Shown one piece after another: positions 1 to 36,024 of a stretch of DNA of 42,375 nt. The notes beneath the pieces are model-generated. The model had not been told where the DNA came from and made no database searches. It saw nothing but the letters and a program-made list of their open reading frames with translations. Source of the stretch: Cyanophora paradoxa CCMP329 (taxonomy: Eukaryota; Plantae; Glaucophyta); assembly GCA_004431415.1 (NCBI GenBank), contig QPMI01000319.1:1-42375 (forward strand), in the 5' to 3' direction. The stretch's first letter is position 1; the number at the start of each line of letters is the position of its first letter. A program made the translations under genes and the position numbers.

Positions 1-456
1 TGGTGAGATCCCCGTCGTCTTGTTGATGTGAGATCGCACTGCAAATAAAGACGATGAAATGAATTTGTCCCAGTTATCGTTGTCTTCGTTAACATAGTTG
101 TAAATAATATTCTTCAGGGTCTGATTCAAACGTTCCACCTTGCCCGTCGCCATCGGACGATAACCAGTGTTGAGAACTGATTTGGTGTCTAGTTTGTTCA
201 ATAAGAGTCTTGTGACGTTGCTCGCGAATGCGCCTCCTTGATCCGTATATATCATCCTTGGTGCGCCATGACGACATAAAATATTCTCATAAATCATATT
301 GCAAGCCGATTTTGCAGACATTGATGGAGTTGCCATTGCTTCTGGATAGCCTGTGTAGACACAAACAGCGGTGCAAATGTAGCGATTTCCACGTGACGTT
401 GTAGGGAGAGGTCCAATGAAATCCAGCTCAACCACTTCAGATGGGCGAGAAGCTGG
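1..456 (-). mobile_element. Ty3/gypsy integrase catalytic core (rve) fragment, runs off the window edge
   Basis: Not in the ORF track. Manual minus-strand translation is open: PASRPSEVVELDFIGPLPTTSRGNRYICTAVCVYTGYPEA...CRHGAPRMIYTDQGGAF...GKVERLNQTLK...NWDKFISSSLFAVRSHINKTTGISP, giving an exact D..D-35-E triad. Confidence 0.92.
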
Positions 457-465
457 GACCGTGTT

Positions 466-1265
466 AGATTTCGGGGGGCGATCGGTGCTGTGAGACTTCG
501 GGGGGCGATCGGGGCAGCCCCGAACCCAACCCCGAAACTAGAAAACTAACACCCTGGGATTTGCCAGAGCACTCTGGCAGGTTTGCCTGATAGGGAGGGG
601 TGTTAGTTTTCTAGTTTCGAGGTTGGGTAGGGGCTGCCCCGATTGCCCCCCCCAATCTCACAGGGGTCCCCACCCCTGCTGTTTCGTGTGGGTGGGGACC
701 CCTGTGAGATTTCGGGGGGCGATGGGGGCAGCACGAAACAGCAGGAAGGGAGCCCTGGGATTCGCCCCAGCACTCTGGCAGGTTTGCATGATAGGGAGGG
801 GTGTTAGTTTTCTAGGTTCGAGGTTGGGTTCGGGGCTGCCCCGATCGCCCCCCGAAATCTCACAGGGGTCCCCACCCACACGAAACAGCAGGCAGGGGGC
901 GCTGGGATCCGCCAGAGCACTCTGGCAGGTTTGCATGATAGGGAGGGGTGTTAGTTTTCTAGTTTCGAGGTTGGGTTTGGGGCTGCCCCCATCGCCCCCC
1001 GAAATCTCACAGGGGTCCCCACCCACACGAAACAGCAGGAAGGGAGCCCTGGGATTCGCCCCAGCACTCTGGCAGGTTTGCATGATAGGGAGGGGTGTTA
1101 GTTTTCTAGGTTCGAGGTTGGGTTCAGGGCTGCCCCGATCGCCCCCCGAAATCTCACAGGGGTCCCCACCCACACGAAACAGCAGGCAGGGGGCGCTGGG
1201 ATCCGCCAGAGCACTCTGGCAGGTTTGCATGATAGGGAGGGGTGTGAGTTTTCTAGTTTTGAGGT
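466..1265. repeat. 147-bp satellite block with orientation switches near 555, 677 and 731
   Basis: Monomer ...ACACGAAACAGCAGGCAGGGAGCGCTGGGATTCGCCAGAGCACTCTGGCAGGTTTGCATGATAGGGAGGGGTGTTAGTTTTCTAGTTTCGAGGTTGGGTTCGGGGCTGCCCCCATCGCCCCCCGAAATCTCACAGGGGTCCCCACCC; translates as a 49-aa repeat. Confidence 0.95.
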
Positions 1266-2096
1266 CAGCCTCAACTTTCTAGGTGACACTGCATCATGAG
1301 GCGCACCCCAAAAGGAAGCCAGGTGCACACAAAACTTTCTCAGGGGGAGACTGCACAAGGCGCTAGCCTTAGGCAGGTGCACCTCACCCAGCCTCAACTT
1401 TCTAGGTGACACTGCATCATGAGGCGCACCCCAAAAGGAAGCCAGGTGCACACAAAACTTTCTCAGGGGGAGAATGCACAAGGCGCTAGCCTTAGGCAGG
1501 TGCACCTCACCCAGCCTCAACTTTCTAGGTGACACTGCATCATGAGGCGCACCCCAAAAGGAAGCCAGGTGCACACAAAACTTTCTCAGGGGGAGACTGC
1601 ACAAGGCGGTAGCCTTAGGCAGGTGCACCTCACCCAGCCTCAACTTTCTAGGTGACACTGCATCATGAGGCGCACCCCAAAAGGAAGCCAGGTGCACACA
1701 AAACTTTCTCAGGGGGAGACTGCACAAGGCGCTAGCCTTAGGCAGGTGCACCTCACCCAGCCTCAACTTTCTAGGTGACACTGCATCATGAGGCGCACCC
1801 CAAAAGGAAGCCAGGTGCACACAAAACTTTCTCAGGGGGAGACTGCACAAGGCGCTAGCCTTACGCAGGTGCACCCCACCCAGCCTCAACTTTCTAGGTG
1901 ACACTGCATCATGAGGCGCACCCCAAAAGGAAGCCAGGTGCACACAAAAATTTCTGGGGGGAGAATGCACAAGGCGGTAGCCTTACGCAGGTGCACCTCA
2001 CCCAGCCTCAACTTTCTAGGTGACACTGCATCATGAGGCGCACCCCAAAAGGAAGCCAGGTGCACACAAACCTTTCTGGGGGGAGACTGCACAAGG
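1266..2096. repeat. 123-bp tandem satellite, about 6.7 near-identical copies
   Basis: CAGCCTCAACTTTCTAGGTGACAC recurs at 1266, 1389, 1512, 1635, 1758, 1881, 2004; 41-aa periodicity in the ORF track. Confidence 0.97.
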
Positions 2097-2431
2097 GCCC
2101 CCCGAAATCTGACAGGGGTCCCCACCCACACGAAACAGCAGGCAGGGAGTACTGGGATCCGCCAGAGCACTCTGGCAGGTTTGCATGATGGGGAGGGGTG
2201 TGAGTTTTCTAGTTTCGAGGTTGGGTTTGGGGCTGCCCCAATCGAATCCCAGCGCTCCCTTCCTGCTGTTTGGTGTGGGTGGGGACCCCTGTGAGATTTT
2301 GGGGGGCGATGGGGGCAGCCCTGAACCCAACCTCGAAACTAGAAAACTAACACCCCTGCCTATCATGCAAACCTGCCAGAGTGCTCTGGGCGAATCCCAG
2401 CGCTCCCTGCCTGCTGTTTCCTGTGGGTGGG

Positions 2432-2531
2432 TGACGGGTAGCGGCCAGAAATGATCAGAGAACACTTGGGAGAACATGTTTACCTGTCATTTGCAAGAGT
2501 CTCGTGTATTTATTCCAGAAGCCAGTACAAG
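2432..2531. other. 100-bp captured fragment, near-identical to ~24692-24791 (region next to the 3' end of gypsy copy B)
   Basis: TGACGGGT(A/T)GCGGCCAGAAATGATCA(G/A)AGAACACTTGGGAGAACATGTTTACC...GCCAGTACAAGCCC occurs at both loci with few differences. Confidence 0.9.
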
Positions 2532-3107
2532 CCCACCCACACGAAACAGCAGGCAGGGAGCGCTGGGATTCGCCAGAGCACCCTGGCAAATTTGCATGAT
2601 AGGAAGGGGTTTTAGTTTTCTAGTTTCGAGGTTGGGTTCGGGGCTGCCCCCATCACCCCCTGAAATCTCACAGGGGTCCCCACCGACACGAAACAGCAGG
2701 CAGGGAGCGCTGGGATCCGCCAGAGCACTCTGGCAGGTTTGCATGATAGGGAGGGGTGTAAGTTTTCTAGTTTCGGGGTTGGGTTCGGGGCTGCCACCAT
2801 CGCCCCCCGAAATCTCACAGGGGTCCCCACCCACAGGAAACAGCAGGCAGGGAGTGCTGGGATTTGCCAGAGCACCCTGGCAAATTTGCATGATAGGGAG
2901 GGGTGTAAGTTTTCGAGTTTCGGGGTTGGGTTCGGGGCTGCCACCATCGCCCCCCGAAATCTCACAGGGGTCCCCACCCACACGAAACAGCAGGCAGGGA
3001 GCGCTGGGATTCGCCAGAGCACTCTGGCAGGTTTGCATGATAGGGAGGGGTGTAAGTTTTCTAGTTTCGGGGTTGGGTTCGGGGCTGCCACCATCGCCCC
3101 CCGAAAT

Positions 3108-3247
3108 TCTAGCACTAAAGCCAACTGTCCATGAGCAGGGCCGGGCAGGGACAGTACCTGTAAAGGTACAGGAGGTTCCCACCTGGGCCTTATTGGACAC
3201 AGGAGCAGACGTTTCTTTGGCCTCACAAAAATTGCTAAACAAGTTGC
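3108..3247 (+). mobile_element. Retropepsin (LTR retrotransposon aspartic protease) active-site fragment
   Basis: VPVKVQEVPTWALLDTGADVSLASQKLLNKL contains the LLDTGA motif. Confidence 0.88.
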
Positions 3248-4660
3248 CGGGGGGCGATGGGGGCAGCCCTGAACCCAACGCCCAAACTAGAAAACTAACA
3301 CCCCTCCCTATCATGCAAACCTGCCAGAGTGCTCTGGCGGATCCCAGCGCTCCCTTCCTTCTGTTTCGTGTGGGTGGGGACCCCTGTGAAATTTCGGGGG
3401 GCAATGGGGGCAGCCCCGCACCCAACCTCGAAACTAGAAAGCTAACACCCCTCCCTATCATGCAAACCTGCCAGAGTGCTCTGGCGGATCCCAGCACTCC
3501 CTGCCTGCTGTTTCGTGTGGGTGGGGACCCCTGTGAGATTTTGCAAACCTGCCAGAGTGCTCTGGCGAATCCCAGCGCTCCCTGCCTGCTGTTTCGTGTG
3601 GGTGGGGACCCCTGTGGAATTTCGGGGGGCGATCGGGGCAGCCCCGAACCCATAAGGGGCGATGGGGGCAGCCCCAAACCCAACCTCGAAACTAGAAAAC
3701 TCACACCCCTCCCCATCATGCAAACCTGCCAGAGTGCTCTGGCGAATCCCAGCGCTACCCGCCTGCTGTTTCGTGTGGGTGGGGACCCCTGTGAGATTTC
3801 GGGGGGCGATTGGGGCAGCCCCAAACCCAACCTCGAAACTAGAAAACTAACACCCCTCCCTATCATGCAAACCTGCCAGAGTGCTCTGGCGAATCCCAGC
3901 ACTCTGTTTTGTGTGGGTGGGGACCCCTGTGAAATTTCGGGGGGCGGTAGGGGCCACCCCGAACCCAACCTTGAAACTAGAAAACTAACACCCCTCCCTA
4001 TCATGCAAACCTGCCAGAGTGCTCTGGCAGATCCCAGCGCTCCCTGCCTGCTGTTTCGTGTGGGTGGGGACCCCTGTGAGATTTCGGGGGGCGATGGGGG
4101 CAGCCTCGCACCCAACCTTGAAACTAAAAATCTAACACCCCTCCCTTTCATACAAACCTGCCAGAGTGCTCTGGCAGATCCCAGCACTCCCTGCCTGCTG
4201 TTTCGTGTGGGTGGGGACCCCTGTGAGATTTAAGGGGCGATGGGGGCAGCCCCGAACCCAACCTCGAGAAACTAGAAAACTCATACCCCTCCCCATCATG
4301 CAAACCTGCCAGAGTGCTCCAGCGAATCCCAGCGCTCCTTGCCTGCTGTTTCATGTGGGTGGGGACCCCTGTGAAATTTCGGGGGGCGATTGGGGCAGCC
4401 CCAAACCCAACCTCGAAACTAGAAAACTCACACCCCTCCCTATCATGCAAACCTGCCAGAGTGCTCTGGCGGATCCCAGCGCTCCCTTCCTTCTGTTTCG
4501 TGTGGGTGGGGACCCCTGTGAGATTTGGGGGGGCAATATGGGCAGCCCCGCACCCAACCTTGAAACTAAAAAACTAACACCCCTCCCTATCATGCAAACC
4601 TGCCAGAGTGCTCTGGCGAATCCCAGCGCTCCCTGCCTGCTGTTTCGTGTGGGTGGGGAC

Positions 4661-4807
4661 CAGCAAAAAGCCAATCGCAAATCCTGGAGGGCTGACCGAT
4701 CCATCGAACACACAGGATTTCTTGTGGACTATACGAATCCCATTCGTCTTAATGGCAAGATCCAATGCAAGGGTGACCCATTCCGCAAACTCCTCTGGGG
4801 TCTCCTT
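4661..4807. other. 147-bp non-satellite insert flanked by a short direct duplication
   Basis: TGGGTGGGGACC at 4650-4661 and 4807-4818; plus frame reads QQKANRKSWRADRSIEHTGFLVDYTNPIRLNGKIQCKGDPFRKLLWGLL; origin not recognised. Confidence 0.75.
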
Positions 4808-5593
4808 GGGTGGGGACCCCTGTGAGGTTCAGGGGGCAATCGGGGCAGCCCCGCACCCAACCTTGAAACTAGAAAACTCACACCCCTCGCTATCATGCAA
4901 ATCTGCCAGAGTGCTCTGGCGGATCCAAGCGCTCCCTGCCTGCTGTTTCGTGTGGGGACCCCTGTGAGATTTCGGGGGGCGCTCCCTGCCTGCTGTTTCG
5001 TGTGGGTGGGGACCCCTGTGAGATTTTGGGGGGATGGGGGCAGCCCTGAACTCAACCTCGAAACTAGAAAACTAACACCCCTCCCTATCATGCAAACCTG
5101 CCAGAGTGCTCTGGCGAATCCCAGCGCTCCCTGCCTGCTGTTTCCTGTGGGTGGGGACCCCTGTGAGATTACGGGGGCAATGGGGGCAGCCCCGAACCCA
5201 ACCTCGAAACTAGAAAACTAACACCCCTCCCTATCATGCAAACCTGCCAGAGTGCTCTGGCCAATCCCAGCGCTCCCTGCCTGCTGTTTTGTGTGGGTGA
5301 GGACCCCTGTGAGATTTTGGGGGGCAATGGGGGCAGCCCCGCACCCAACCTCGAAACTAGAAAACTAACACCCCTCCCTATCATGCAAACCTGCCAGAGT
5401 GCTCTGGCGAATCCCAGCGCTCCCTTCCTGCGGTTTCGTGTGGGTGGGGACCCCTGTGAGATTTCCGGGGGCGATCGGGGCAGCCCCGAACCCAACCCCG
5501 AAACTAGAAAACTAACACCCCTCCCTATCATGCAAACCTGCCAGAGTGCTCTGGCGAATCCCAGCGCTCCCTGCCTGCTGTTTCGTGTGGGTG

Positions 5594-6862
5594 AAGTCTC
5601 TACAATTGCACCTTCATTCGATAAAGGGTACTTCGAAAAGATCAAGTCGCAAATTGATTATGGATTTTCAGGAGCTACAGCTGATCAGAAGGAAAAGATA
5701 GAGGCTTTGTTGCGAAACAATTGTGATGTGTTTGTAGAAAAGTTTGTTTTTGATCCCAAGGCTTGTTTACCAGGTGAGCATTCTATCAACACTGGATCTT
5801 CACTTCCCATTAATTCAAGGCCTATGCACTGGTCTCCTAAGGATAGAGCACTTTTCAAAACAACACTGGAAGATTTGATTTCCAGAAACATTGCTGAGCC
5901 TTCGCAGAGTCCTTGGTCAGCACCAGCTTTCTTTGTTACAAAGCAAGGCACAGATGAAATGCGGCTAGTCACTGATTATCGCAAGTTGAATGCAATTACA
6001 AAGAAGAATGTGTATCCTCTTCCCAAGATTCAGGACATGTTGGATGCCCTCCAAGGCAACCAGTTTTTCTCCACAATGGACTTTTCAAGTGGGTTCTGGC
6101 AAGTTAAGATGAAGGATCAAGACAAAGAAAAGACAGCATTCAAAACGCCGTTTGGATTATTTCAGCTAAAAGTGATGGCGATGGGGCTCACTAATGCACC
6201 CCCAACCTTTCAGTCTATAATGGAAGGAATGTTGAACGATTATCTGTGGATATTTGTGCTTGTTTTTATTGACGATTTGATTACTTTCTCAAAGTCTTTT
6301 GAAGAACATTGCACCCATTTGCAGAAAGTGTTCAACAGGCTGCGGAAAAACCACGCAAAGTTAAAACCTAGTAAGTGTCACCTATTCAAAAAGGAGTTGA
6401 AATTTCTTGGGCATATTGTTGATGGAACTGGAAGGAGTCCCGATCCAGCAAAGTTAAAGGCCATTGACGAGTTTCCACAGCCAACAGATGTATCCAGTTT
6501 GCGATCTTTCTTGGGAACTTGCAACTATTATAGGGACAATGTCCAAAATTTCTCGCAAATCACATCTGATTTATATGAATTGACACAGAAGAATATTGAA
6601 TGGAAGTGGACAGACCACCATCAGCAACTCTTTGAGCAGGTGAAGCAAGAGTTATTGAAAAAGACTGTTCTCCACTTCCCTGATTTCAACAAGCATTTCA
6701 TTCTTGAAACTGATGCCAGTGATAAAGGCATTGGAGGTATACTATCGCAGGAGAAGGATGGAAAAATCATGCCAGTTTACTTCTATAGCAGAAAATGGAG
6801 AAAAGAAGAAAGAAATATGCCAGCTTCGGAGGCTGAATGTGCAGCTGTTGTTGATTGTCTCA
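5594..6862 (+). mobile_element. pol: Ty3/gypsy pol fragment (RT plus N-terminal RNase H), family A
   Basis: SPWSAPAFFV, RLVTDYRKLN, YPLPKI, FSTMDFSSGFWQV, KTAF, MGLTNAPPTFQ, VFIDD, FLGH, FILETDASDKGIGGILSQ. Stop-free; the ORF-track N-terminus (5236-5593) is satellite. Homologous to 32392-34000. Confidence 0.95.
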
Positions 6863-7148
6863 ATAGTATCTTGGATTTGTAGTTACTAGACAGGGCATCA
6901 AGCCCTCTGCCACAAAGGTGGAGGCTGTTCGCAAGTTTGCGACCCCCAAATCTGTATCAGAAGTTAGGACTTTTCTTGGAATGACTGGATATTATAGAAT
7001 TTTTGTACCTTTATATGCAGTTCTTGCAGCGCCACTCTATGATCTTTGCGCCAAGAGTTCACATTTTCATTGGACTGCTCGAGAGGATCTGGCTTTTCGG
7101 AAATTAAAAGAGTTGCTTTGTTCTGCTCCCATTCTTTCGCAGCCCTGA
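6863..7148 (+). mobile_element. pol: Second gypsy RT thumb/connection fragment, family B-like
   Basis: YLGFVVTRQGIKPSATKVEAVRKFATPKSVSEVRTFLGMTGYYR...KLKELLCSAPILSQP aligns to YLGFVVCREGIKP...SVSEVRSFLG...KLKELLCSSPILAYP in ORF 25194-27137. Confidence 0.9.
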
Positions 7149-7831
7149 ACCCAACATCGAAACTAGAAAACTAACACCCCCCCCTTTCATGCAAACCTGC
7201 CAGAGTGCTCTGGCGAATCCCAGTGCTCCCTGCCTGCTGTTTCTTGTGGGTGGGGACCCCTGTGAGATTTCGGGGGGCGATCGGGGTGTAAGGAAGGGGC
7301 GTTAGTTTTCTGGTTTCCAGGTTGGGTTTGGGGCTGCCCCTATCGCCCCCCAAAATCTCACAGGGGTCCCCACCCACACCAAACAGCAGGCAGGGAGCGC
7401 TGGGATTCGCCAGAGCACTCTGGAGGGGTGTTAGTTTTCTATTCGAGGTTGCCCCATCCATTGCACATCATCCTCAGGCACGCAGAAGCGGGATCATGCC
7501 ACATTGGTGTGGCTGCACCGATTGCCCCCCGAATTCTCACAGGGGTCCCCACGCACATGCAACAGCAGGAAGGGAGCGCTGAGATTCGCCAGAGCACTCT
7601 GGCAGGTTTGCATGATAGGAAGGGGTGTTAGTATTCTAGTTTCGAGGTTGGGTTCAGGGCTGCCCCCATCGCCCCCGAAATCTCACAGAGGGGAGGGGTG
7701 TTAGATTTCTAGTTTCGAGGTTGGGTTCGGGGCTGCCCCGATCGCCCCCGGAAATCTCACAGGGGTCCCCACCCACACGAAACAGCAGGCAGGGAGAGCT
7801 GGGATTCGCCAGAGCACTCTGGCAGGTTTGC
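7139..7831. repeat. Rearranged 147-bp satellite block with an inversion near 7288 and a ~55-bp insert at ~7457-7510
   Basis: Satellite motifs with internal deletions and more divergent monomers. Confidence 0.9.
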
Positions 7832-7976
7832 ACCTGTGCATGCTGTCGGGGGTACTTGAGGGAGCTAGATTCGATTATGAAGTCACTTGAACACAGTTGC
7901 GAGTCTGTGCTGGCGGAAGTTGAGGGGAGCAGTCGTTGTGGAGTGCCGCCTGGAGTAATTCGTGCGGCGACCTGGG

Positions 7977-8241
7977 AAGCTAAACCCCTGACAAAACTAG
8001 AAATCTATACGAGAGCAGGACTGGTTCCGGTTCCTAAAATCCACCAGCCTAACAAAACATTTAAATTCCTTGGGGTTTGGTTCACGATGACACTGAACTG
8101 GACGCACCAATTCCAGAACATGCTCGAGAAGGCCAAGATGGCAGCAGCTATCCTCCGACCAAAACGCCTGACAGACACAGAAATCATCTTCCTCACCCAC
8201 GTAGTGATAATGCCACGGATCACATACGGACTCACATACGG
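7977..8241 (+). mobile_element. Non-LTR (LINE) reverse transcriptase C-terminal/thumb fragment
   Basis: TFKFLGVWFTMTLNWTHQ...PKRLTDTEIIFLTHVVIMPRITYG matches the LINE (Y/F)K(Y/F)LG ... P-x-hydrophobic-x-Y pattern; 7977-8150 is identical by eye to 14132-14305. Confidence 0.8.
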
Positions 8242-8930
8242 CATCATCTGTACCTCGGTGCGCGCGACGCCCCGCCGCGTCTATGCGTCGCGAACTCGCG
8301 CACACTCACTCCGTTACAGGCGTGCTGCATCATGGACGACCCGTACGGCCACCCCTGGGCGAACCGGTGGAAGTGCCCCAAGGCGCAAGACGACTTCATC
8401 AAGAAGACCGCCTACTACGCGGCCGCCAAGGAAGTGCGTGTCTGCGGCGCGCCCGCGGGCTCCGCGGTGGCGAAAGCGGCCGCCGAAGCGGCTCGGGCGG
8501 CCGCCGCGCGCTCCGCCACCGACACCTTCCAGACGGACCTCGCGCGCACGCGCGCCGCCGTCAACGCCGACGCTGACGCCTCCGTCGTGTCCGCCGCCTC
8601 CGTCAGCACCACGAGCAGCGCGGTCCGCCGCTTCAGCCTCCTCGACATGCAACGCCCGGTCCACCGGCACAAGTCTCCGTCCGAGGCGAGCCCCGCGCAC
8701 CCGCCCGTCGCTTTCGGAATGACCGACCCCGCTGCCCGCAGATGCGTCGCAACGAGCGTCGTGCGGCTGAGCGCGAAGCCGCCGCCGCCGCCGCCGCTGC
8801 CGGCATGATGCCGGCCCCGCCAGCCCCGCGCCAGCAGACCGGCCGCGAGAGCAAGCGCCGGCTCGCCCAGAAGGCCGCGGAGATCGCCGCCAACAAGGCG
8901 GCCAAACGCTACCTCAACCAGGCAGCGTAG
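8242..8930 (+). pseudogene. 3' portion of a GC-rich spliced host-type gene (putative introns 8258-8319 and 8434-8741)
   Basis: GTGCGC...CTCAC...TTACAG (62 nt) and GTGCGT...CCCGCAG (308 nt), both phase 0, join ICTS|ACCIMDDPYGHPWANRWKCPKAQDDFIKKTAYYAAAKE|MRRNERR...RYLNQAA*. Confidence 0.5.
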
Positions 8931-9786
8931 CCTCGAAGGCGGGAGGCTCCGGCTCACGGCCGCCCGGAGCTATCGAGCAGCTAGCTCCTTTCCTCTCCTG
9001 TGCAGGAGACCCTTTCTCTAGCTATCTTTCCTTTCTTTGGACAATCTTTTCTTTCAGTCGAATGAACTTTCACGTCTACAACAGTAGATTTCATGGGGCT
9101 GTGCCCCTAGCCTGGAACTGATGTTCTCCTCCCCGGGCTCAGCCCCTAATGTGAACGCGAAGGCCTTTTTGGAAGTTTTTTGCCTTCGTCCTCCTGCAAT
9201 ATAGATAGGAAGAGGGGGGGGGGGGTTCGGAGTGGGGGGGGGCGAGGCTAGGACGAGGGTGCTCGCATAGGTAAGGACGCGCCCGCTCAGGACCCCACGG
9301 CGGCGACGGGAGCGGGAGGAGGCCAAGCTGGAGGAGACTCGAACGCGGCGTCGGCAGGGCCCAGCGGGCCCGTAAGGCCGAGGTTTAGGAGCTTCGGCTC
9401 CCCACGTTCGGCCAGCGACGCCCTGCTCCCAACACCCCGCCGCACCCGTGGACTTGGGCGGCGCGATCCAAGACCCAGCGCAACAACCTGAACCTACCCT
9501 CCCATCTCTCCCTCCCCACCTCCCCTCTCAACTCCCCCCTTCACGAGCGACCCACGGCCATGTTTTAAAACCAGCAAGAGGGCATCTAGGACCGTGTAGC
9601 TCAGCATGCCTACGCCTCCTACTTGAGGACCGGCGCATATTATGTGTTGGGGGCGACCTGACGGCTACAGCTTCAGCATCAGCTCGACTACGACAACAAG
9701 CTATAGAACCGAGCTCGCCCTTTTCCTCAGTGTAGCTTGGCTTTCCCAGTATCCGGTAGGCGCGGAGCGGGGGACTGCTGTCATGT

Positions 9787-11507: not shown

Positions 11508-11594
11508 GCTCGCGGCGGTCCGGCGGGGTGCTGCGGGGCCGTCGTCCGATATCGAAGGCCGAGAAGAGAACAGGGGCAAAAACAACGCACGGAC

Positions 11595-24480: not shown

Positions 24481-24482
24481 CG

Positions 24483-27012: not shown

Positions 27013-27051
27013 GGATCCAGAAAGAGCTTCAAGAGCATCATCAATTCTTGG

Positions 27052-29208
27052 TCAGGGATATGCATCATCCTTGGTAACACTGTTGAGCCTTCTGTAATCA
27101 ATACAGAAGCGATATGAGCCATCCTTCTTCCGCACAAGGACCACTGGGGCGGCCCAAGGGCTTCTCAAAGGACGAATCAAATTCCTGTTGATCAGCTTTT
27201 GAGTCTCTTGAACGATCTTTTGGCGCTGGTCAAAAGAGAGACGTCTTGGAGGTTCAGCAATCGGCTTTGCATCTCCAGTGTCAATGCTATGCTCAATAGG
27301 AGGAGCAGGTCTGGACTCATCATGTTTCCACTGACCCTCAGCAAAAACTTCATGCTTCCTTGCCAAGAAATCCCACATAAGCTTCCTTTCATCAAGATTA
27401 TCATCAGCTGAACCAACACTGCATGGAGAAATGAGGCTTGCAACATTTTCACCAAATCGCTCCCGAATCTCCTTCAGAATCACTTCATCAACTGAAGACA
27501 CTGATATGGAACCTGATTGCGACAAGACAGAACACTTTTTATCGCTATCTACGGGAATCGAGTTATTTACAACAGAATCTGAAACTCTTCTACTTGAATC
27601 ATCGGAAGAAGGCTGGAGAACAGCTTCGGACGCAGTGATATCTACTGAATCAGGACCCTTGTACTCAGAAGTGTGCACAAAACTTCCTTTCCCAGATGAG
27701 TCATAACTCAGCACCAGGTTGACATCACAGATTTTCGGCATGTTGTGGACAAATGATGTTTTACTCTTGCTTGGAACAAACCTGGCTAGCCGGGTACCTT
27801 CAGGTATTAATGCCGGTCCCCTGTCAGACCTTGGATCAAGATTGACAAGCAATACCTTGATACGTCCTCCACGACAATGAGCTGGGCCAGCTGACGAACC
27901 ACGGCGCTCAGCCGAGCGACCGCGATAACCACCAGAAGAATTTCCAAAATTGCGAGAATCACTTCCAGAATTAACAAATTTGTCATTCGAACGATTGCGA
28001 TCAAAATTATAATTCCCACGAGGCTGGTCACGCCAGCTATCACCACGAGGGCGATACTGCAACTGGCGAGACAACTGATCCATGCGATCCAAAATAATCG
28101 AAGAAGTGCGACGAGAATCATCGCGCAACTCATCGAACTGCTGGCGAGCTTCGTGCCGAATCTCGTTCAATTGGCGGCGAGTTTCGTCACGAAGTGAATC
28201 GAGCTTATCATCCACCTTCAAAGAAAACTGTTTAAGCTTCGATTCGACCCGCTCATCAATCAAAGACTCAATACGCTCCGAAGTGAGAGCGTTCAATCCA
28301 GAAACATTTTTCGGCGATCCAAAAGGAAGAGAAGCAATTCCAAAAGGAGAAACCGAAGAAAAAGAGGAAGTGCGATCGGTCCAAAGACTGCGCAGCCGAC
28401 GCAAAAAGCGAAGTTTGTTGTCGTCCAATTCAGCAGGTAGCTCACCCAACTTCAGATCATCACTCCAAAATTTGTTAAGTTTGTTGTCGTCCAATTCAGC
28501 AGGTAGCTCACCCAACTTCAGATCATCACTCCAAATTTGTTTCACCACAACTTTCTCGAGAATGCCAGCTTCCTCCGCTCGCTTCATCTTCTCCACAGCA
28601 AAGTCCTCAAAATTGACTTGAGTACCAGCCTGGAGACAAGCACTCTGGTATGTGTAGGACCAGAAATTGCGAGCAGAATCCGTCTGGACATCCGAATGCA
28701 TAAAGTGATCCTCGAATTTTTTAAGAAAAGTCGTCCAATTGTCACATTCAAGGACCACTCGAGAAAAGTCATGGGCCCCAGCTGCCTCATTGAAAACAGA
28801 CTGGAGTTTTAACTGCACATGGGGCCAAGCATAGTCAAAATCAGCCTTTGCCTGAGCCGTCCATGTGGAGTAAGGAGTGGTGTCCACAGCAGGAAGGACA
28901 TAGATCGCCTTCAGCACATCGCGAACATTTTTAAGGAATCTAGAAGGAGCAGAATACTCAAATTTGGGGAGAAGAAGATTCCGCAGGAGCGGCTTAATCA
29001 AGTCCACCCTAGGCTGGGCAGCCATGATGTCCTCCTGGTCAATGTCCACAGAAACGTTGTCCTCGTCAGCCAGCCTTCCTGCCTGTGCGGAGAGCAGGAT
29101 AGCTTTATTTATACAGTCGTTAACTAAGGTCCTCAGGAAGGGCCCAAGCCTACGACGGTACACTGCTCGAATAGTGTTGCTTGACGAGGCCAGTGTTCAA
29201 GAAAACAT
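27052..29208 (-). pseudogene. gag-pol: gag, partial dUTPase-like spacer and RT N-terminus of copy B
   Basis: ATG at 29208 then TTT TCT TGA in frame with ORF 27052-29163; coiled-coil and RG-rich gag end; [46 protein letters not shown]. Confidence 0.88.
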
Positions 29209-29542
29209 TTCAGATCGTTCCAAAAGAAAGAAAGAGAGATGAAGAGAGATTCCAAAAGGAGAGAAAAGAGACAACTCCGGAAACTCGCGGGATTCCACGG
29301 AAAACGGAGGTATCACAATCAAACGACCTCGGCCAGCCGGCCAAGAGCGCACACAGCTTCGAACATGAGATTCATGAGTGAATCGCGATGCAACAAGCTT
29401 ATGTTCTCCGCAAAATGGCGGAATCGACAATGAAAGGTCGCAGTGCGCAAATCGCTGCAGAACGCACTGTAAGCGTATACGCAATCAGAAGAACGATGCG
29501 CAGACGCTGTGAGACCGCTTTGTCGAACACTTCGCGTCGAAC

Positions 29543-29560
29543 ATTCCACCGCTGCCACGA
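29543..29560 (-). promoter_or_regulatory. Primer-binding site, tRNA-Leu type
   Basis: Minus strand TCGTGGCAGCGGTGGAAT matches the tRNA-Leu PBS TGGTGGCAGCGGTGGGAT (recalled) at 16/18; about 335 bp upstream of the gag ATG. Confidence 0.7.
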
Positions 29561-29562
29561 AA

Positions 29563-29791
29563 TACAATGGCTTCCGGCGGCAGCCCCGCTGATAAGAAGC
29601 TGCTTGAGTCTATACGATGGGTTCTAAGCCACTTCCGCACACGGCGCAGTGCCGTGCCGGGACGCACGTGCACACACGCGTAATATCCGCGTATGATTGA
29701 ATGACATACCCCTACACGAGGGACGGGGTATCACTAGCGTACATGCTACATTCGCTACGGCGAAAGGGAAGGGGAACTACGCTTCGCGACA
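29563..29791 (-). repeat. Putative 5' LTR of copy B (about 230 bp)
   Basis: Begins TGTCGCG exactly at the satellite junction and ends just before the PBS; no canonical CA end and no partner LTR visible. Confidence 0.5.
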
Positions 29792-31340
29792 CCAGAGTGC
29801 TCTGGCAAATCCCAGCGCTCCCTGCCTGCTGTTTCGTGTGGGTGGGGACCCCTGTGAGATTTCAGGGGGCAATGGGGGCAGCCCCAAACCCAACCTCGAA
29901 ACTAGAAAACTAACACCCCTCCCTATCATGCAAACCTGCCAGAGTGCTCTGGCGAATCCCAGCGCTCCCTGCCTGCTGTTTCATGTGGGTGGGGACCCCT
30001 GTGAAAATTTGGGGGCAGCCCCGAACCCAACCTCGAAACTAGAGAACTAACACCCCTCCCTATCATGCAAACCTGCCAGAGTGCTCTGGTGAATCCCAGC
30101 GCTCCCTTCCTGCTGTTTTGTGTTGGTGAGGACCCCTGTGAGATTTCGGGGGGCGATGGGGGCAGCCCCAAACCCAACTTCAAAACCAGAAAACTAACAC
30201 CCCTCCCTATCATGCAAACCAGCCAAGGTTCTCTGGCGAATCCCAGCGCTCCCTGTCTGCTGTTTCGTGTGGGTGGGAACCTGTGAGATTTCGGGGGGCG
30301 ATCGGGGCCGCCCCGAACCCAACCTCGAAACTAGAAACCTTACACCCCTCCCTATCATGCAAACCTGCCAGAGTGCTCTGGCAAATCCCAGCGCTCCCTG
30401 CCTGCTGTTTTGTGTGGGTGGGGACCCCTGTGAGATTTCGGGGGGCGATCGGGGCCGCCCCGAACCCAACCTCGAAACTAGAAACCTAACACCCCTCCCT
30501 ATCATGCAAACCTGCCAGAGTGCTCTGGCAAATCCCAGCGCTCCCTGCCTGCTGTTTTGTGTGGGTGGGGACCCCTGTGAGATTTTGGGGGGCGATCGGG
30601 GCCACCCCGAACCCAACCTCAAAACTAGAAAACTAACACCCCTCCCTATCATGCAAACCTGCCAGAGTGCTCTGGCAAATCCCAGCGCTCCCTGCCTGCT
30701 GTTTTGTGTGGGTGGGCACCCCTGTGAGATTTCGGGGGTCGATCGGGGCCGCCCCGAACACAACCTCGAAACTAGAGAACTAACACCCCTACCTATCATG
30801 CAAACCTGCCAGAGTGCTCTGGCGAATCCCAGCGCTCCCTGCCTGCTGTTTTGTGTGGGTGGGGACCCCTGTGAGATTTTGGGGGGCGATCGGGGCCACC
30901 CCGAACCCAACCTCAAAACTAGAAAACTAACACCCCTCCCTATCATGCAAACCTGCCAGAGTGCTCTGGCAAATCCCAGCGCTCCCTGCCTGCTGTTTTG
31001 TGTGGGTGGGCACCCCTGTGAGATTTCGGGGGTCGATCGGGGCCGCCCCGAACACAACCTCGAAACTAGAGAACTAACACCCCTACCTATCATGCAAACC
31101 TGCCAGAGTGCTCTGGCGAATCCCAGCGCTCCCTGCCTGCTGTTTTGTGTGGGTGGGGACCCCTGTGAGATTTCGGGGGGCGATGGGGGCCACCCCGAAC
31201 CCACCTTGAAACTAGAGAACTAACACCCCTTCCTATCACGCAAACCTGCCAGAGTGCTCTGGCGAATCCCAGCGCTCCCTGCCTGCTGTTTCGTGTGGGT
31301 GGGGACGTCTGTGAGATTTCCGGGGTCGATTGGGGCCGCC
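29792..31340. repeat. 147-bp satellite block with a 294-bp dimer repeat
   Basis: Alternating variants (GGDRGHPEPNLK / GVDRGRPEHNLE in translation) repeated in ~30560-31150. Confidence 0.95.
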
Positions 31341-31349
31341 ATCTTTGGA

Positions 31350-31613
31350 CTATGGACTGACTCCAAAATGACCTTGGTTTACGTAACCACTTGGTAATGG
31401 GAATACTTGCTGATTAATATAAACGCCATTAACATTATAACTTATCACAATATGATCGGTTCCAATCGAATTATAAATGCTGTTGGGAATCTCCGCATAC
31501 AAAACTCGACATTCTCGCGGTTTCGTTATTGGTGTAGTTAGTGAGACCTTGTAAGAGTTTTCTTTTTGTCCTTCTGATCGGTCTCTACTGTCGACATTGA
31601 TTAGCTGAATCAT
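31350..31613 (-). pseudogene. Putative minor capsid (penton) protein N-terminal fragment of a Polinton-like virus/NCLDV type
   Basis: MIQLINVDSRDRS...SYKVSLTTPITKPRECRVLYAEIPNSIYN...LPSGYV fits the hxhDSRDR...L..PI...h....IP.S.YN...hP.G.Y penton N-terminal pattern; AT-rich leader. Confidence 0.7.
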
Positions 31614-31638
31614 TTTATTATATGGTTATAGATAAACA

Positions 31639-32052
31639 CCGGAATCTGACCCCTCGGACGACTCCAGCACTCGCAGAGTGTCCAAGGAGCATGGTCATAT
31701 TCTGGAGGTTGCAAGGGAGGTTAAAATTGAACCTGGTGTGCAACGGAAGGTTGAACTGCAAGTCGGAGGCAACCGCTATTTGCCGGATTGTGAAGGTTTT
31801 CTTGTCAACTTCTACAAATGGGACGACAATCAGGAGGTCCGTGTGGCAAACGGACTTGCTGCATGTCGTGGAGGCAAAGTATATGCTTTAGTTTCGAATT
31901 TGAGCAATCGTTTTTCCGAGAAACCAGTTGTTTTGAAGAAGGGCCGTGCAATCGCACGATTTGTCCCTGAGAAGAATCTCGAAGCTGAAGTTTTTGACTT
32001 GGCTCTGAATTTGAGTTATGATCAAGATGGGAACGGCAAGTATGTGAAGGTC
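31639..32052 (+). mobile_element. Gypsy protease-RT spacer fragment with dUTPase-like fold
   Basis: VKIEPGVQRKVELQV...VANGLAACRGGKVYALVSNL...PVVLKKGRAIARFVP...LNLSYD is homologous to [13 protein letters not shown]...[15 protein letters not shown]...LVLSYD in copy B. Confidence 0.7.
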
Positions 32053-32174
32053 GAGTGCTCTGGCGAATCTCAGCGCTCCCTTCCTGCTGTTTCCTGTGGG
32101 TGGGGACCCCTGTCAGATTTTGGGGGGCAATGGGGGCAGCCCTGAACCCAACCCCGAAACAAGAAAACCAACAC
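32053..32174. repeat. Partial 147-bp satellite monomer linking two retroelement fragments
   Basis: GAGTGCTCTGGCGAATC...CCCCGAAACAAGAAAACCAACAC. Confidence 0.9.
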
Positions 32175-34900
32175 TCCTCCGAGGGGATGATCATGAGCGT
32201 CCTTGATGAGATCACGCTGCAAAGATGATGGAATAACAATGCGAGCATTAACACCCAAAGGCGAAAACATAAGCAGTCCTTTTCTGTTCATGGTGAAAAA
32301 CTTGGCCATGCGCTGGAGCTTTTCGTTGGAGGTTGTCTTCCCTTCCAACAACTCAATCAATTCAATGAGGTCCTTGTCTTGTCGCTGTGCCTCATTCACT
32401 CGGTCTAGACAAGGAAATGAGGTCGTCAGAAACGGAAATTGCAATGTTCAGAATTTCGTATTTATCTTCTGCATAAATATGTGAAGATGGATCTACTGGA
32501 ACTCTTGAAAAACCATCAGCACGGTTCAAAGAACCCTTCCTGTGTTTAATGGTGATATCATATTGCTGAATCAATGCAGACCATCGAGCAAGTTTTCCCT
32601 TTCCAGGTTTTCTGCTGAGCAACCATTCCAAAGCTTCACAATCTGTAAACACTGTTGACTTTGGTGCCCCTAGAAGATAGTGGCTCCACTGAGTAAGACA
32701 ATCTACAAGTGCTGCACATTCACCTTCAGAAGGAGGCATCTGTTTCTCAGAGCCTCTCCATTTGCGACTGTAAAAGCAAACGGGCTTCAAAACACCTTCT
32801 TGTTCCTGAGAGAGAATGCCAGAAGCACCCTTCTCGCAGGCATCTGTTTCAATTATAAACGGTTTGTTGAATTCAGGGTAGTGGAGAATTATGCACTTCA
32901 GCAATTCTTTCTTCAGATTGATGAAGTCCCTGGTATGCTCCTCTGTCCAAACAAAAGGAACATCTTTCTGTGTTAAATCGTAGAGACGAGCAGTTATAAT
33001 AGAAAACTTGTCGACATTATCTCTGTAATAGTTACAGGAACCAAGAAATGACCGCAGCTCAGTAGCATTATCTGGAATCGGAACTTTTTCAATTGCTTCC
33101 AGTTTTGCAGGGTCAGGGCGTCTGCCATTTCTATCTACAATGTGACCAAGAAACTTGAGCTCCATTTTAAAGAAGTGACACTTGTTGGGCTTGAGCTTGG
33201 CGTTGTTGGCACGTAGCCTGTTGAATGTATTTTGCAAGTCTCTGCAGTGCTCTTCAAAAGTCTTGGAATATGTAATAAGATCATCAATGCAAACGAGAAC
33301 AAACATCCAGAGATAATCATTGAAAATATTTTCCATGATGGCCTGAAATGTGGGGGGAGCATTTGTAAGTCCCATGGGCATAACCTTCATTTCAAACAAG
33401 CCATAAGGGGTTTTAAAGGCGGTTTTCTCCCGGTCAGATGGCTTCATCTTAACTTGCCAAAATCCAGTGGCGAGATCCATATTCGAAAAGAACCGACTTC
33501 CCTGAAGTGCGTCCAACATATCTTGTATATTAGGCAATGGATAAACATTTTTCTTGGTTGCTGCATTCAGGTTTCTATAATCAACTACGAGCCGCATTTC
33601 AGACGTATCATGCTTGCTGACAAAGAAAGCTGGAGAAGACCAAGAGCTCTGGGACTGTGCTGCTAAATTTCGAGCAAGCATGTCTTCCAAAGTCGTTTTG
33701 AACAATTCTCGGTCCTTGGGAGAATGGTGTAAAGGCCTCGATTTGATAGGAGGATGATCACCAGTATCAATGCTGTGTTCTCCAGGCAAGCACTTGTCTT
33801 CAGAAAATACGAACTTGTTCTCAAAAATATCACAGTTGTTCCTGAACAATTCTTTCATTATTTGTTTCTGTTCTACAGTTGCTCCAGAAAAACCAAAATC
33901 CAGTTGAGACTCTATGCTATCAAAGTAAGCTCTGTCAAAAGAAGGATCAATTGTTGATGTCACATTTTCTTTGCCTTTATGGAGATTGAGTGAGAGAATT
34001 TCATAATTTGCTTCTTGGATCCAGGATGCCAAAACATCACCCTTCTTTAGCATCATCTCATTATCACTACCACAGATGGTCATCCGAAAATTTAGATTGT
34101 TTCCAGACTGTCCAGTGGCTGCTGAAGTTTGTTTCCAGACTGTCCAGTGGCTGCTGAATCGAAAAAGAGACTGAATCAATTTGGGATCAGGGGGATCGTA
34201 ACACCTCTGGGCCTCTGCCTGCTCTAATTTGGTGCGGAAATCATTCAAAGAGGAGATTCCAAGCATGTTAAAATATTTGCAGTGCTTCAATGATGCCAGC
34301 TTCAGAATATACTCCACCAGATTTTTGTCCACCTCTCCTGGGAATGCAACTCTGGCTACCTTGAGGGACGTATCAATAAATCCATTGATGTTTGAACTGA
34401 GGTCTGGTTTCCATGGATAAAGATCGTAGAAATACGCCCGAGCATCGTCTTTACTGGGATTGAATCGCGCTTTCAATTGATTAACAACATCGTCAAAAAA
34501 AGTTGCTGGCAAGGGTTCTGGGTGGTCAAGCTGACAAAGAAAATCATGAGCAACACCCGTTGTAGCCGCTAGCAGAACAGAAAACTTTTCATCTTGTGAG
34601 AGACCGGGTACCCCCTTGAAAATGACATTTTCCATTTTTATTTTCAAGTCATCAACTCCAGAAAACCCGTCTGGGTTAAGACACACACCAGAAAATTGAA
34701 ATTTGGAGGCTTTTTTCTCTAAAAGATTAACAAGCTTCTGTCTAGCAAGAATTTCTTCTGCCATTTCCTCGATTTCTACCCGAGGTTCCTCGTCCTCTAA
34801 ACTATTGTCCACGTTTTCAGAGGCCACCTCCTCCACAACTGCACTGGCAAGCGATTTTCCACTTCTTAGTTTCAGATTGGAAAGCCTACCGATGCTACCA
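32175..34900 (-). mobile_element. gag-pol: Internally deleted, 3'-truncated Ty3/gypsy element (copy A): gag, RT, RNase H, start of integrase Zn finger
   Basis: LRSGK, TGVAHDF...LKARF (gag); VDYRNLN, MDLATGFWQV, VCIDD, TDAC, TDCEAL, NRADGFSR; frameshift near 32400-32440 then AQRQD...IVIP...AHDHPLGG. No protease motif. Confidence 0.93.
34885..34900 (-). promoter_or_regulatory. Putative primer-binding site (initiator tRNA-Met-like)
   Basis: Minus strand TGGTAGCATCGGTAGG immediately upstream of gag; its first bases can pair in an 8-bp hairpin GCTACCAC-CATTT-GTGGTAGC. tRNA identity is inferred. Confidence 0.55.
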
Positions 34901-35317
34901 CAAATGGTGGTAGCACCGCAAACAAAACAAAAAGTCACAAGACAGAAAAACAAGTCTACCAAGACTGGGTCCGTTGCCCCCCCGAGGGGGGGGATATCAG
35001 CCTACGGGCTCGACCACTGACCTATCAATGCATGCCTCTAATCTTTCAATCCCAGGTGAAAATCGCATCAATGATTGCCAATCCAGGTGGAAATGTGTTT
35101 CGAAAGCCATTCAAGCCAAAGCCGTGCGTGGACTTAATCCACTTGTCCTGAAATCTTAAACGATTTGCATGTTCACATCTTCGACCCCACTTGATTTTGC
35201 CTGCAGGCCCGTTGAAGAGAAACCCTACAGGCTTGATGACTGGCAACCTGGAGAGCAGCTACACTTTGATCAGAATGAGAAGCTTCTTCCAGGCACAGGC
35301 ATTTATGTGTGAGCTGT

Positions 35318-35620
35318 GGGTCCCCACCCACACGAAACAGCAGGCGGGGAGCGCTTGGATCCGCCAGAGCACTCTGGCAGGTTTGCATGATAGGGAGGGG
35401 TGTTAGTTTTCTAGTTTCGAGGTCGGGTTCAGGGTGGCCCCTACCGCCCCCCGAAATTTCACAGGGGTCCCCACCCAGGGGTCCCCACCCACACCAAACA
35501 GCAGGAGGGTAGCGCTGGGATTCGCCAGAGCACTCTGGCAGGTTTGCATGATGGGGAGGGGTTTAGTTTTCTAGTTTCGAGGTTGGGTCGGGGCTGCCCC
35601 CATCGCCCCCCGAAATCTCA
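35318..35620. repeat. About 2 monomers of the 147-bp satellite
   Basis: Satellite motifs with a small internal duplication AGGGGTCCCCACCC. Confidence 0.93.
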
Positions 35621-35754
35621 TCAAGGTTGAAATCGATGGTGACCGTTTCAAAGCTCTATCGATTACTGAAGAAGATGCGGAGAATTACATTATCCCTTAC
35701 GTTTATGACCACTCTCCCCTTTCTGAGGGTCCGGATCCGCGTCACCAGTTGTAA
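35620..35754 (+). pseudogene. 3' end of an unknown gene followed by an AT-rich non-coding tract to 36024
   Basis: Manual translation IKVEIDGDRFKALSITEEDAENYIIPYVYDHSPLSEGPDPRHQL*; below the ORF-track cutoff. Confidence 0.45.
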
Positions 35755-36024
35755 TTGAATTCAAATATAATTGATTTCATTCATTTTCACAGTAAAACCA
35801 CAGGGAGGGGGTCATGGGTAAAGAGAGAAAATGTGATTTATCAATAAAGTCGATAGATATATATGAGAGGCATAGGTAGGGGGTCATGGTTTTTTGGGGA
35901 AAGTGAGCAATTTACGATTCCTATCGGGCATTGGTAAGGAATCGATCGTAAATTGCTATTAATTGATGCGAGGTTCATAATTGCGATGCGGGGTTTTAAC
36001 TGCGAGGTTCACTGCAAACCGACC

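What the first reader, a model, noticed from the sequence alone, without database searches (positions are those of the whole stretch)
1..36024. Satellite array acting as a trap for shards of retrotransposon and DNA-virus sequence
Seen: about 20 unrelated pieces (~55 bp to ~5 kb) alternate with blocks of one palindromic 147-bp repeat. Most recognisable pieces are parasite DNA: at least two gypsy families in several diverged copies, one LINE, Polinton-like virus capsid/ATPase/penton genes and a virus-type nuclease. Many are internal gene slices with no LTR, TIR or poly(A) end, in both orientations, and often stop-free, so they did not arrive by their own transposition. Established: piRNA clusters and EVE-rich loci store such fragments as silencing templates. 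Inference: a repeat-plus-captured-fragment archive, loosely CRISPR-like in layout, filled by break repair and possibly transcribed into dsRNA through the inverted satellite arms. Neutral heterochromatic decay and library chimerism are real alternatives.
Basis: partly seen in the sequence, partly recalled or inferred. Interest (0 to 1): 0.85.

Follow-up and report, generated by a model that had tools for sequence, protein, structure and literature searches.

The report
Scrambled satellite edge holding parasite shards
In an unidentified eukaryote, the edge of a 147-bp satellite array is a patchwork of satellite, retrotransposon, virus-like and host DNA pieces, likely stitched together by repeated DNA-break repair; part of it is matched by likely RNA, but a role in silencing parasites is untested.

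Summary
The mosaic is there: 15 non-satellite blocks (23.2 kb, about 24 pieces) lie among 12.8 kb of a 147-bp satellite. The monomer is not palindromic. The satellite is itself scrambled: 21 jumps in 1-36,024, none in the 6.35 kb beyond. Joins carry 0-5 nt microhomology, and 0 of 14 inserts sit in an in-register break, unlike CRISPR. About 61% of insert DNA is gypsy, LINE-like or Polinton-like; the capsid and ATPase calls have tool support, while penton, LINE and nuclease rest on recalled motifs. One gypsy is nearly full length, and an intact single-copy fucosyltransferase-like gene sits inside. An RNA-like run has one contig running from that gene into an antisense gag shard, and 8 GT..AG skips on the strand antisense to gypsy pol. 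At least 3 of these come from other copies. The penton-like shard has no RNA cover. Best reading: a break-repair scar (0.6). A read-through antisense trap is possible (0.17) but unproven.

The parts
462..35620 (.). Scrambled blocks of the 147-bp satellite (12.8 kb in all): 21 direct satellite-to-satellite jumps (8 strand flips), plus 4 joins through 3-21 bp spacers
36025..42375 (+). Unbroken head-to-tail 147-bp array (0 jumps), the internal control
1..461 (-). Gypsy integrase core shard, cut by the window start
   Evidence: PF00665 E 1.8e-13
1266..2096 (.). Second tandem repeat, 123 bp x 6.8
2432..2531 (.). 100-bp shard, 97% identical to 24692-24790 (probable gypsy A LTR); microhomology 0 and 3 nt; the satellite flips strand across it
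3108..3247 (+). Retroviral-type aspartic protease shard
   Evidence: PF00077 E 5e-4
4662..4806 (.). 145-bp unassigned insert, the only one with an exact flanking direct repeat (12 bp)
5594..6860 (+). Gypsy B-type RT/RNaseH shard, 68% nt to 32696-33957
6861..7138 (+). Gypsy A-related RT shard (61% aa to gypsy A), joined directly to the previous piece
7975..8250 (+). LINE-like RT C-terminal shard (name from recalled motifs); 174 bp are 100% identical to 14132-14305
   Evidence: no library hit
8251..11597 (.). Unassigned GC-rich mosaic: ORF with a hydrophobic C-terminal stretch (9868-10635 +) and a nuclease-like ORF (about 10914-11507 -, name from a recalled motif)
   Evidence: no significant hit
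11598..12733 (.). Third tandem repeat, 263 bp x about 4
12734..14046 (+). Unassigned: ORF with Cys/Pro/Thr repeats and a GC-rich 29-bp repeat
14047..14305 (+). Second LINE-like shard, fused in frame to the capsid half
14306..14955 (+). C-terminal half of a double-jelly-roll major capsid protein (Polinton-like virus type, inferred)
15047..15802 (+). A32-like packaging ATPase, uninterrupted ORF
   Evidence: PF04665 E 4.4e-14
15799..16275 (-). RING-finger ORF convergent with the ATPase, same AT-rich piece
   Evidence: PF13639 E 0.008, below the curated cut-off
22707..23831 (+). Intact, intronless, single-copy fucosyltransferase (GT11)-like gene, covered by one RNA-like contig
23933..23951 (-). 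19-bp satellite sliver between the gene and the gag shard; both junctions bridged in 4 of 4 runs
23952..24482 (-). Gypsy A-related gag shard, antisense to the upstream gene
24658..29791 (-). Near full-length, internally deleted gypsy A copy with both probable LTRs cut by satellite; carries a 66-bp local duplication; template for + strand GT..AG skips
31341..31635 (-). Penton-like 5' shard (name from recalled motifs); several-fold single-copy depth in DNA, no RNA cover in 2 of 2 RNA-like runs
   Evidence: no hit
31636..32052 (+). Gypsy A-related shard; 1-nt and 2-nt microhomology at its ends
32181..35027 (-). 3'-truncated gypsy B copy lacking 767 bp that the RNA contigs carry, with a 32-bp duplication near that point; about 1% from the copy seen in RNA
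35028..35317 (.). Single-copy unassigned piece; no RNA cover at 35130-35289
35621..36024 (.). Unassigned AT-rich piece with other copies in the genome; 3-nt microhomology with the satellite

Best explanation
This is the rearranged edge of a 147-bp satellite array, likely a scar of repeated double-strand breaks that end-joining repair would have sealed with pieces of the satellite itself, of gypsy and LINE-like elements, of a likely endogenous Polinton-like virus, of other tandem repeats and of single-copy host DNA. SHOWN: the patchwork; short microhomologies; no in-register insertion; local duplications next to deletions; reality of the 22.55-24.2 kb junctions in three DNA runs; other genomic copies of the gypsy and penton-like pieces. 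INFERRED: NHEJ or microhomology-mediated joining as the enzyme route; that the parasite-rich content reflects what is abundant near the satellite or loose in the nucleus (retrotransposon cDNA, viral DNA) rather than selection; CpG methylation of the array. An intact single-copy gene inside the patchwork is likely transcribed and would read on into an antisense gag shard. On this reading that is a by-product.
For: Satellite is cut and rejoined to itself 21 times in 12.8 kb against 0 times in the next 6.35 kb. Microhomology at those 21 joins is 0-5 nt, mean 1.38 against 0.72 for random joins (p about 0.007; the parse may inflate this a little). At the 6 insert junctions where both parents could be read, overlap is 0, 3, 1, 2 and 3 nt, and one has a single extra base. 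0 of 14 inserts are flanked by in-register satellite, 6 of 14 have a strand flip across them, and 1 of 14 has an exact flanking repeat. Deletions come with local duplications of 66 and 32 bp. Unrelated pieces join directly without satellite (gypsy|gypsy at 6860, LINE-like|capsid at 14305, penton-like|gypsy at 31636). Non-parasite pieces are caught as well. C>T/G>A changes are 12.6% at satellite CpGs against 1.4% at other C/G. Precedent: yeast NHEJ captures Ty cDNA, mtDNA and fragile nuclear DNA from about 44-46 bp upward, and about 4,000 of 33,000 insertions join 2-4 pieces (PMC11372161; section 7 and passages read). The smallest insert here is 44 bp (a single case).
Against: The largest piece (5.1 kb gypsy A) and the gypsy B 5' half look like ordinary insertions cut later, so not every piece need be a captured filler. 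Many shards are still stop-free. The gene-to-antisense-gag contig and RNA contigs carrying this window's gypsy A letters show that the region is not inert. The genome-wide repeat content is unknown, so neutrality is assumed, not shown. Junctions in 1-22.4 kb were not checked against reads.
Confidence: 0.6

Rival explanations
1. A functional silencing trap. The single-copy gene at 22.7 kb would drive + strand read-through into antisense gypsy sequence, and the RNA would be processed into small RNAs against active copies, as in mosquito core piRNA clusters. Break repair would supply new shards and selection would keep the useful ones.
For: One RNA-like contig (X1, 22642-24377, 0 differences) covers the whole + strand ORF, the 19-bp satellite sliver and 426 bp of minus-strand gag. 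Another (24713-25170; 0 substitutions, 1 gap) keeps this window's letters where DNA contigs of 3 runs show other letters. 8 of 10 X1 joints shown are GT..AG skips of 44-108 nt on the + strand, antisense to pol; chance is 0.4% each, and none is in the 3 DNA runs. No + strand ORF over 180 aa arises in any of 128 splice combinations. Downstream of the gene, 3 of 4 gypsy pieces (8.5 of 8.9 kb) are minus strand. Read-through clusters with antisense viral pieces are described in bioRxiv 10.1101/2022.08.22.504762 (abstract and section 7 read).
Against: Contigs give no strand and no small RNA. At least 3 of the 8 spliced joints lie on contigs with other copies' letters, and two contigs with this window's letters cross splice sites unspliced (26598-26742, 26760-26897). 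The only X1 contig shown across the satellite at 24657 has depth 19, and its first 369 letters do not lie on the window. The penton-like shard and 35130-35289 have no RNA cover in X1 or X2, and gypsy B RNA is from a fuller copy elsewhere. Over the whole region, gypsy pieces are 5 minus and 4 plus. Gypsy A relatives are abundant in both RNA-like runs, so they are not plainly silenced.
Confidence: 0.17
2. Ordinary nested insertion followed by slow decay. Gypsy, LINE and Polinton-like elements entered the satellite by their own integrases, and later deletions and inversions trimmed them to slices.
For: Gypsy A keeps probable LTR remnants at both ends, and gypsy B keeps its 5' region. Capsid, ATPase and RING ORFs keep their order in one 2.1-kb piece. 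Retrotransposons nested in endogenous PLVs, and fragmented PLVs, are reported (PMC12220804, passages read).
Against: No element keeps a complete end with a target-site duplication. Nine gypsy pieces from several diverged copies would each need two deletions. Shards are about 1% or less from copies elsewhere (gypsy B) or 100% identical to each other (LINE-like), which points to recent, abrupt cutting. The neighbouring 6.35-kb array is untouched.
Confidence: 0.13
3. Library or assembly chimera: whole-genome amplification or a low-coverage long-read consensus created the joins.
For: Strand flips with short microhomology are also typical of amplification chimeras (established knowledge). Monomers at 37.9-40.3 kb have 6.5 gap openings each against 0.2-0.9 elsewhere, so parts of the contig rest on poor consensus.
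Against: DNA runs X5 (2024), X11 (2012) and X13 (2019) each hold one contig from 22548/22550 to 24089/24225 with 0 differences, at their lowest depth on the stretch (65, 42, 47). These contigs cross 23932|23933 and 23951|23952 in 3 of 3 runs; at 22579|22580, 1 of 3 meets the tool's 31-letter rule and the other two have 30 letters. X5 and X13 also hold 34999-35345 with 0 differences, but with only 29 and 28 letters beyond its two junctions.
Confidence: 0.07

Closest known systems
Complex NHEJ insertions at double-strand breaks (yeast Ty cDNA / NUMT capture; PMC11372161, section 7 and passages read)
   Same: Multi-piece joins of retrotransposon, repeat and nuclear fragments; short microhomology; smallest pieces near 45 bp.
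   Different: Here about 70 joins over 36 kb are in a reference sequence, pieces reach 5 kb, the satellite itself is shredded, and DNA-virus pieces take part.
Drosophila centromere 'islands of complex DNA' (PMC6516634, passages read)
   Same: Tens of kb of TE fragments and other repeats flanked by large satellite arrays.
   Different: Those islands are defined by CENP-A binding (not testable here) and share a retroelement; here satellite blocks are interleaved and flipped throughout.
Mosquito core piRNA clusters made by read-through from an upstream gene (bioRxiv 10.1101/2022.08.22.504762, abstract and section 7 read)
   Same: An expressed gene directly upstream of antisense parasite fragments (22.6-24.4 kb contig).
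   Different: No small-RNA data; orientation is mixed over the region; the virus-like shard tested has no RNA cover; those clusters lack H3K9me3 and trap RNA-virus pieces.
Endogenous Polinton-like viruses in protist genomes (PMC12220804, passages read)
   Same: Capsid plus A32 ATPase in a eukaryote genome, several copies of the penton-like piece, mixed with retrotransposons.
   Different: Only slices are present (2.1 kb and 0.3 kb), and the retro-elements abut them through microhomology joins instead of nesting whole.
CRISPR array (layout only; recalled)
   Same: Repeat alternating with foreign DNA.
   Different: Repeat blocks vary from 19 bp to about 6 kb, flip strand and break at any phase; inserts vary from 44 bp to 8.6 kb.

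Membership tests
piRNA/siRNA source cluster (TE/EVE trap) | Produces locus-derived 21-30 nt RNAs | not testable with these tools
   Only assembled contigs were served.
piRNA/siRNA source cluster (TE/EVE trap) | Long precursor covering the fragments | tested here: inconclusive
   One contig covers 22642-24377 and contigs with window letters reach 27587; no RNA cover at 31290-31609 or 35130-35289 in 2 of 2 RNA-like runs.
piRNA/siRNA source cluster (TE/EVE trap) | Fragments biased antisense to the precursor (uni-strand type) | tested here: inconclusive
   Whole region: gypsy pieces 5 minus, 4 plus. Downstream of the gene: 3 of 4 minus. Strand of the RNA unknown.
piRNA/siRNA source cluster (TE/EVE trap) | Enriched for parasite DNA over genomic background | not testable with these tools
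   61% of insert bp, but no genome is held.
CRISPR-like ordered archive | Inserts added at a fixed repeat position with the repeat restored on both sides | tested here: not met
   29 junction phases spread over the monomer (most in one 13-bp window: 8, p=0.13); 0 of 14 inserts in register.
End-joining complex insertion / rearrangement scar | 0-5 nt microhomology or a few extra bases at joins, no target-site duplication | tested here: met
   21 satellite joins with 0-5 nt; 6 insert joins with 0-3 nt or +1; exact flanking repeat at 1 of 14.
End-joining complex insertion / rearrangement scar | Joins exist in independent DNA libraries | tested here: met
   Met only for 3 junctions in 22.55-24.2 kb; most of the roughly 70 joins were not tested.
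End-joining complex insertion / rearrangement scar | Dependence on Lig4/Ku or Pol theta | not testable with these tools
   Needs genetics.
Polinton-like virus | Double-jelly-roll major capsid protein | tested here: inconclusive
   ESM 0.97 to Preplasmiviricota and Capsid_NCLDV clusters but recognition 1768; one unnamed 30% relative; fold model pLDDT 30, unusable.
Polinton-like virus | A32-like packaging ATPase next to the capsid gene | tested here: met
   PF04665 E 4.4e-14, above the cut-off, 92 bp after the capsid ORF.
Polinton-like virus | Penton (minor capsid protein) | tested here: inconclusive
   Beta-rich 87-aa model at pLDDT 48; no fold or profile hit; name recalled.
Polinton-like virus | 15-40 kb genome with terminal inverted repeats, integrase/recombinase and polymerase or primase-helicase | not testable with these tools
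   Only slices are in the window and no genome is held; a virophage or giant-virus origin is not excluded.
Centromeric island of complex DNA | CENP-A/CENH3 occupancy | not testable with these tools
   Needs ChIP.

The most novel reading that the evidence does not exclude
A break-prone satellite edge acts as a natural trap: end-joining packs it with retrotransposon and DNA-virus shards, and a resident single-copy gene reads through into them to make antisense, spliced, non-coding RNA that silences the active copies. This would be a piRNA-cluster-like memory in a probably non-animal eukaryote, filled by DNA repair rather than by transposition.
Probability: 0.17. Interest if true: 0.78.

Novelty: new variant of a known kind. 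Interest (0 to 1): 0.47.

Why it matters
Such satellite-edge patchworks are usually dismissed as chimeras. Part of this one is shown to be real, with about two joins per kb and a sharp boundary to clean array. It shows how slices of retrotransposons and DNA viruses can enter heterochromatin without their own integrases. It also offers a direct test of whether a gene read-through into such slices is used for silencing. If neutral, it is an extreme natural example of a known repair outcome.

Tried and rejected
No whole genome is held, so genome-wide enrichment was not tested. No listed run is on record as RNA. I treat X1 and X2 as RNA because they lack cover where DNA runs have it and X1 alone has GT..AG skips; this stays an inference. 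Summed depths were used only as rough single-copy versus multi-copy hints. The 'palindromic monomer' was rejected. No preferred breakpoint phase (phases, two of 29 corrected). No Rfam family in 1-36,500 and no tRNA gene in the window. The ATPase found no relative at E<=0.001 among 150 candidates or in viral contigs. The capsid half, P0127 and the nuclease-like ORF found no viral-contig locus. Capsid half, LINE-like and nuclease-like pieces had no meaningful PDB sequence hit. AlphaFold models were too poor to use (pLDDT 30 and 48), and the fold search of the second gave 0 hits at E<=0.001. A 26-nt satellite motif had 0 exact matches in metagenome and viral contigs, so no sister locus could be compared. 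The host lineage was not established: the best gypsy B relative is 43% identical, and the gene's relatives are 25-32% identical and unnamed. The scan's earlier findings returned nothing. Parts without a bridging contig in the rows shown are not counted as absent; the tables were cut (16,427 and 6,905 pieces not shown).
Full report
Anatomy. A 147-bp repeat fills 19.1 kb of the window; 104 near-full monomers average 94% identity to their consensus. In 1-36,024 it totals 12.8 kb and alternates with 15 other blocks totalling 23,210 bp. The monomer is not a palindrome: only a 16-bp imperfect palindrome lies inside it. A cyclic alignment shows that the satellite is cut and rejoined to itself 21 times in this stretch (8 flips of strand), with 4 more joins through 3-21 bp spacers, and never in the 6,351 bp that follow. 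With 29 satellite-insert junctions and the joins between inserts, there are roughly 70 joins in 36 kb. Satellite CpGs mutate to TpG/CpA at 12.6% against 1.4% for other C/G, which suggests methylation (inference).

What the inserts are. My hand division gives 24 pieces: 9 gypsy (11,175 bp), 2 LINE-like (535), 2 Polinton-like (2,436), 2 other tandem repeats (1,967), 2 single-copy (1,643), 1 piece present in several copies (404) and 6 unassigned (5,050). Five gypsy pieces have Pfam support; the other four are assigned by similarity to window or database gypsy sequence. The ATPase is firm (PF04665). The capsid half is probable, though the atlas recognition score is below its threshold and the fold failed. 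Penton, LINE and nuclease are recalled-motif calls with no library support. Two facts go against 'internal slices only'. First, 24658-29791 is a nearly whole gypsy with probable LTR remnants at both ends (motif naming recalled). Second, 22707-23831 is an intact, intronless gene resembling GT11 fucosyltransferases (ESM 0.96; relatives with weak PF01531 scores). The host is an unidentified eukaryote with short spliceosomal introns; a protist or alga is my guess, not a result.

Is it real? 20 of 24 listed runs hold 53-69% of the words of 22,600-29,700. I laid 5 of them on two stretches, 22,420-29,900 and 31,290-36,080. Three DNA-type runs of 2012, 2019 and 2024 each give one contig with 0 differences from 22,548/22,550 to 24,089/24,225 at their lowest depth on the stretch. 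It crosses gene|satellite and satellite|gag in 3 of 3 runs. At satellite|gene, 1 of 3 meets the 31-letter rule; the other two have 30 letters. Two runs also give 34,999-35,345 exactly, reaching 29 and 28 letters past its junctions, short of the rule. One run could be the assembly's source, but three libraries would not share random chimeras. Monomers at 37.9-40.3 kb carry many single-base gaps, so the contig has weak stretches.

How the joins were made. Satellite-to-satellite joins overlap by 0-5 nt (mean 1.38 against 0.72 at random, p about 0.007). Loose ends of contigs from other copies, and in-window duplicates, reveal both parents at six insert junctions: overlap 0, 3, 1, 2 and 3 nt, and one extra base. 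No insert has satellite in register on both sides, 6 of 14 have a strand flip across them, and 1 of 14 has an exact flanking repeat of 12 bp. Breakpoint phase does not cluster significantly (p=0.13). Gypsy B lacks 767 bp that RNA contigs of the family carry, with a 32-bp duplication nearby; gypsy A has a 66-bp duplication that a DNA contig of the family skips. This is the signature of end-joining with short microhomology and templated bits (established knowledge). Yeast NHEJ makes the same multi-piece captures and draws on retrotransposon cDNA without selection (PMC11372161; section 7 and passages read). Whether the donors were neighbours or loose DNA is not resolved.

Copies elsewhere. Summed DNA depth, a rough hint only, is 65 on the gene in X5, about 140-160 on gypsy B, about 430 on the penton-like piece, 240-2,900 along gypsy A and over 100,000 on satellite bins. 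So the parasite shards tested appear to have relatives elsewhere in the genome, and the gene appears not to.

Transcription. X1 and X2 are only guessed to be RNA, but they lack cover on the penton-like piece and on 35,130-35,289 where DNA runs have it. For the trap idea: X1 has one exact contig from 65 bp before the gene's ATG, through the ORF and a 19-bp satellite sliver, into 426 bp of minus-strand gag. Further X1 contigs carry this window's letters in gypsy A (24,713-25,170 and four shorter ones up to 27,587). Of 10 X1 joints shown (15 of 45 joints were listed), 8 are GT..AG skips of 44-108 nt on the + strand, antisense to pol, and are absent from the DNA runs; chance is 0.4% each. Splicing opens no ORF above 180 aa. 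Against it: at least 3 of those 8 joints are on contigs with other copies' letters, and two contigs with this window's letters cross splice sites unspliced. The one contig shown over the satellite at 24,657 is shallow, and its first 369 letters lie elsewhere. Gypsy B RNA runs on past this copy's break and carries the deleted 767 bp, so it comes from another copy. Satellite-containing RNA contigs exist (450 and 328 nt, 6-8 differences), but none shown crosses an inversion here. Contigs cannot give strand or small RNA. Antisense RNA of LTR elements is itself known (PMC10974842 and PMC7264820, search listing only), so the spliced antisense RNA may come from the elements' own LTRs.

Comparison. 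It works like a complex end-joining insertion accumulated many times over, and it is laid out like a Drosophila satellite-flanked island (PMC6516634, passages). One sub-region resembles a mosquito read-through piRNA cluster (10.1101/2022.08.22.504762, abstract and section 7), but membership cannot be claimed without small RNAs. It fails the CRISPR-like test. Endogenous, fragmented PLVs mixed with retrotransposons are known in protists (PMC12220804, passages). Searches returned no paper whose listing describes a shredded satellite interleaved with PLV and gypsy shards. The library lacks most subscription papers, and no supplements were read.

Verdict. Break-repair scar 0.60; functional read-through trap 0.17; own-machinery insertion with decay 0.13; artefact 0.07. 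New variant of a known kind; interest 0.47.

Noticed in passing
window 25672-27717 (+): Eight short GT..AG introns on the strand antisense to gypsy A pol in run X1, several with CTGAC-like branch points and three alternative acceptors for one donor: family-level spliced antisense RNA with no long ORF.
   Followed up: partly
window 22707-23831 (+): An intact, intronless, apparently single-copy GT11-like gene sits inside scrambled satellite; the 60 bp before it look like decayed satellite; nearest relatives are only 25-32% identical.
   Followed up: partly
window 14047-14955 (+): A LINE-like RT shard is fused in frame to the capsid C-terminal half, giving one 302-aa open frame; 174 bp of the shard recur identically at 7977-8150.
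   Followed up: partly
window 2431/2532, 3107/3248, 20382/20383, 20534/20542: Four strand flips rejoin the satellite within 6 phases of the same monomer position (fold-back-like), two with a captured 100-140 bp spacer.
   Followed up: no
window 4650-4818: A 145-bp unassigned insert flanked by an exact 12-bp satellite duplication, the only target-site-like repeat.
   Followed up: partly
window 9868-10878 and 12778-13614 (+): Abutting ORFs of 51-55% GC with hydrophobic segments and Cys/Pro/Thr repeats and no library hit; possibly from one unknown element.
   Followed up: partly
window 15047-15802: The A32 ATPase has no relative at E<=0.001 in the word-indexed protein search, which suggests a divergent virus lineage in this host.
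   Followed up: partly
window 37900-40300: Monomers have about 6.5 gap openings each, a likely low-coverage long-read consensus; higher-order repeats are visible at 36.4-37.7 kb.
   Followed up: partly
window 1266-2096 and 11598-12733: Two further tandem repeats (123 bp, CpG-poor; 263 bp, CpG-rich) are caught in the patchwork.
   Followed up: no
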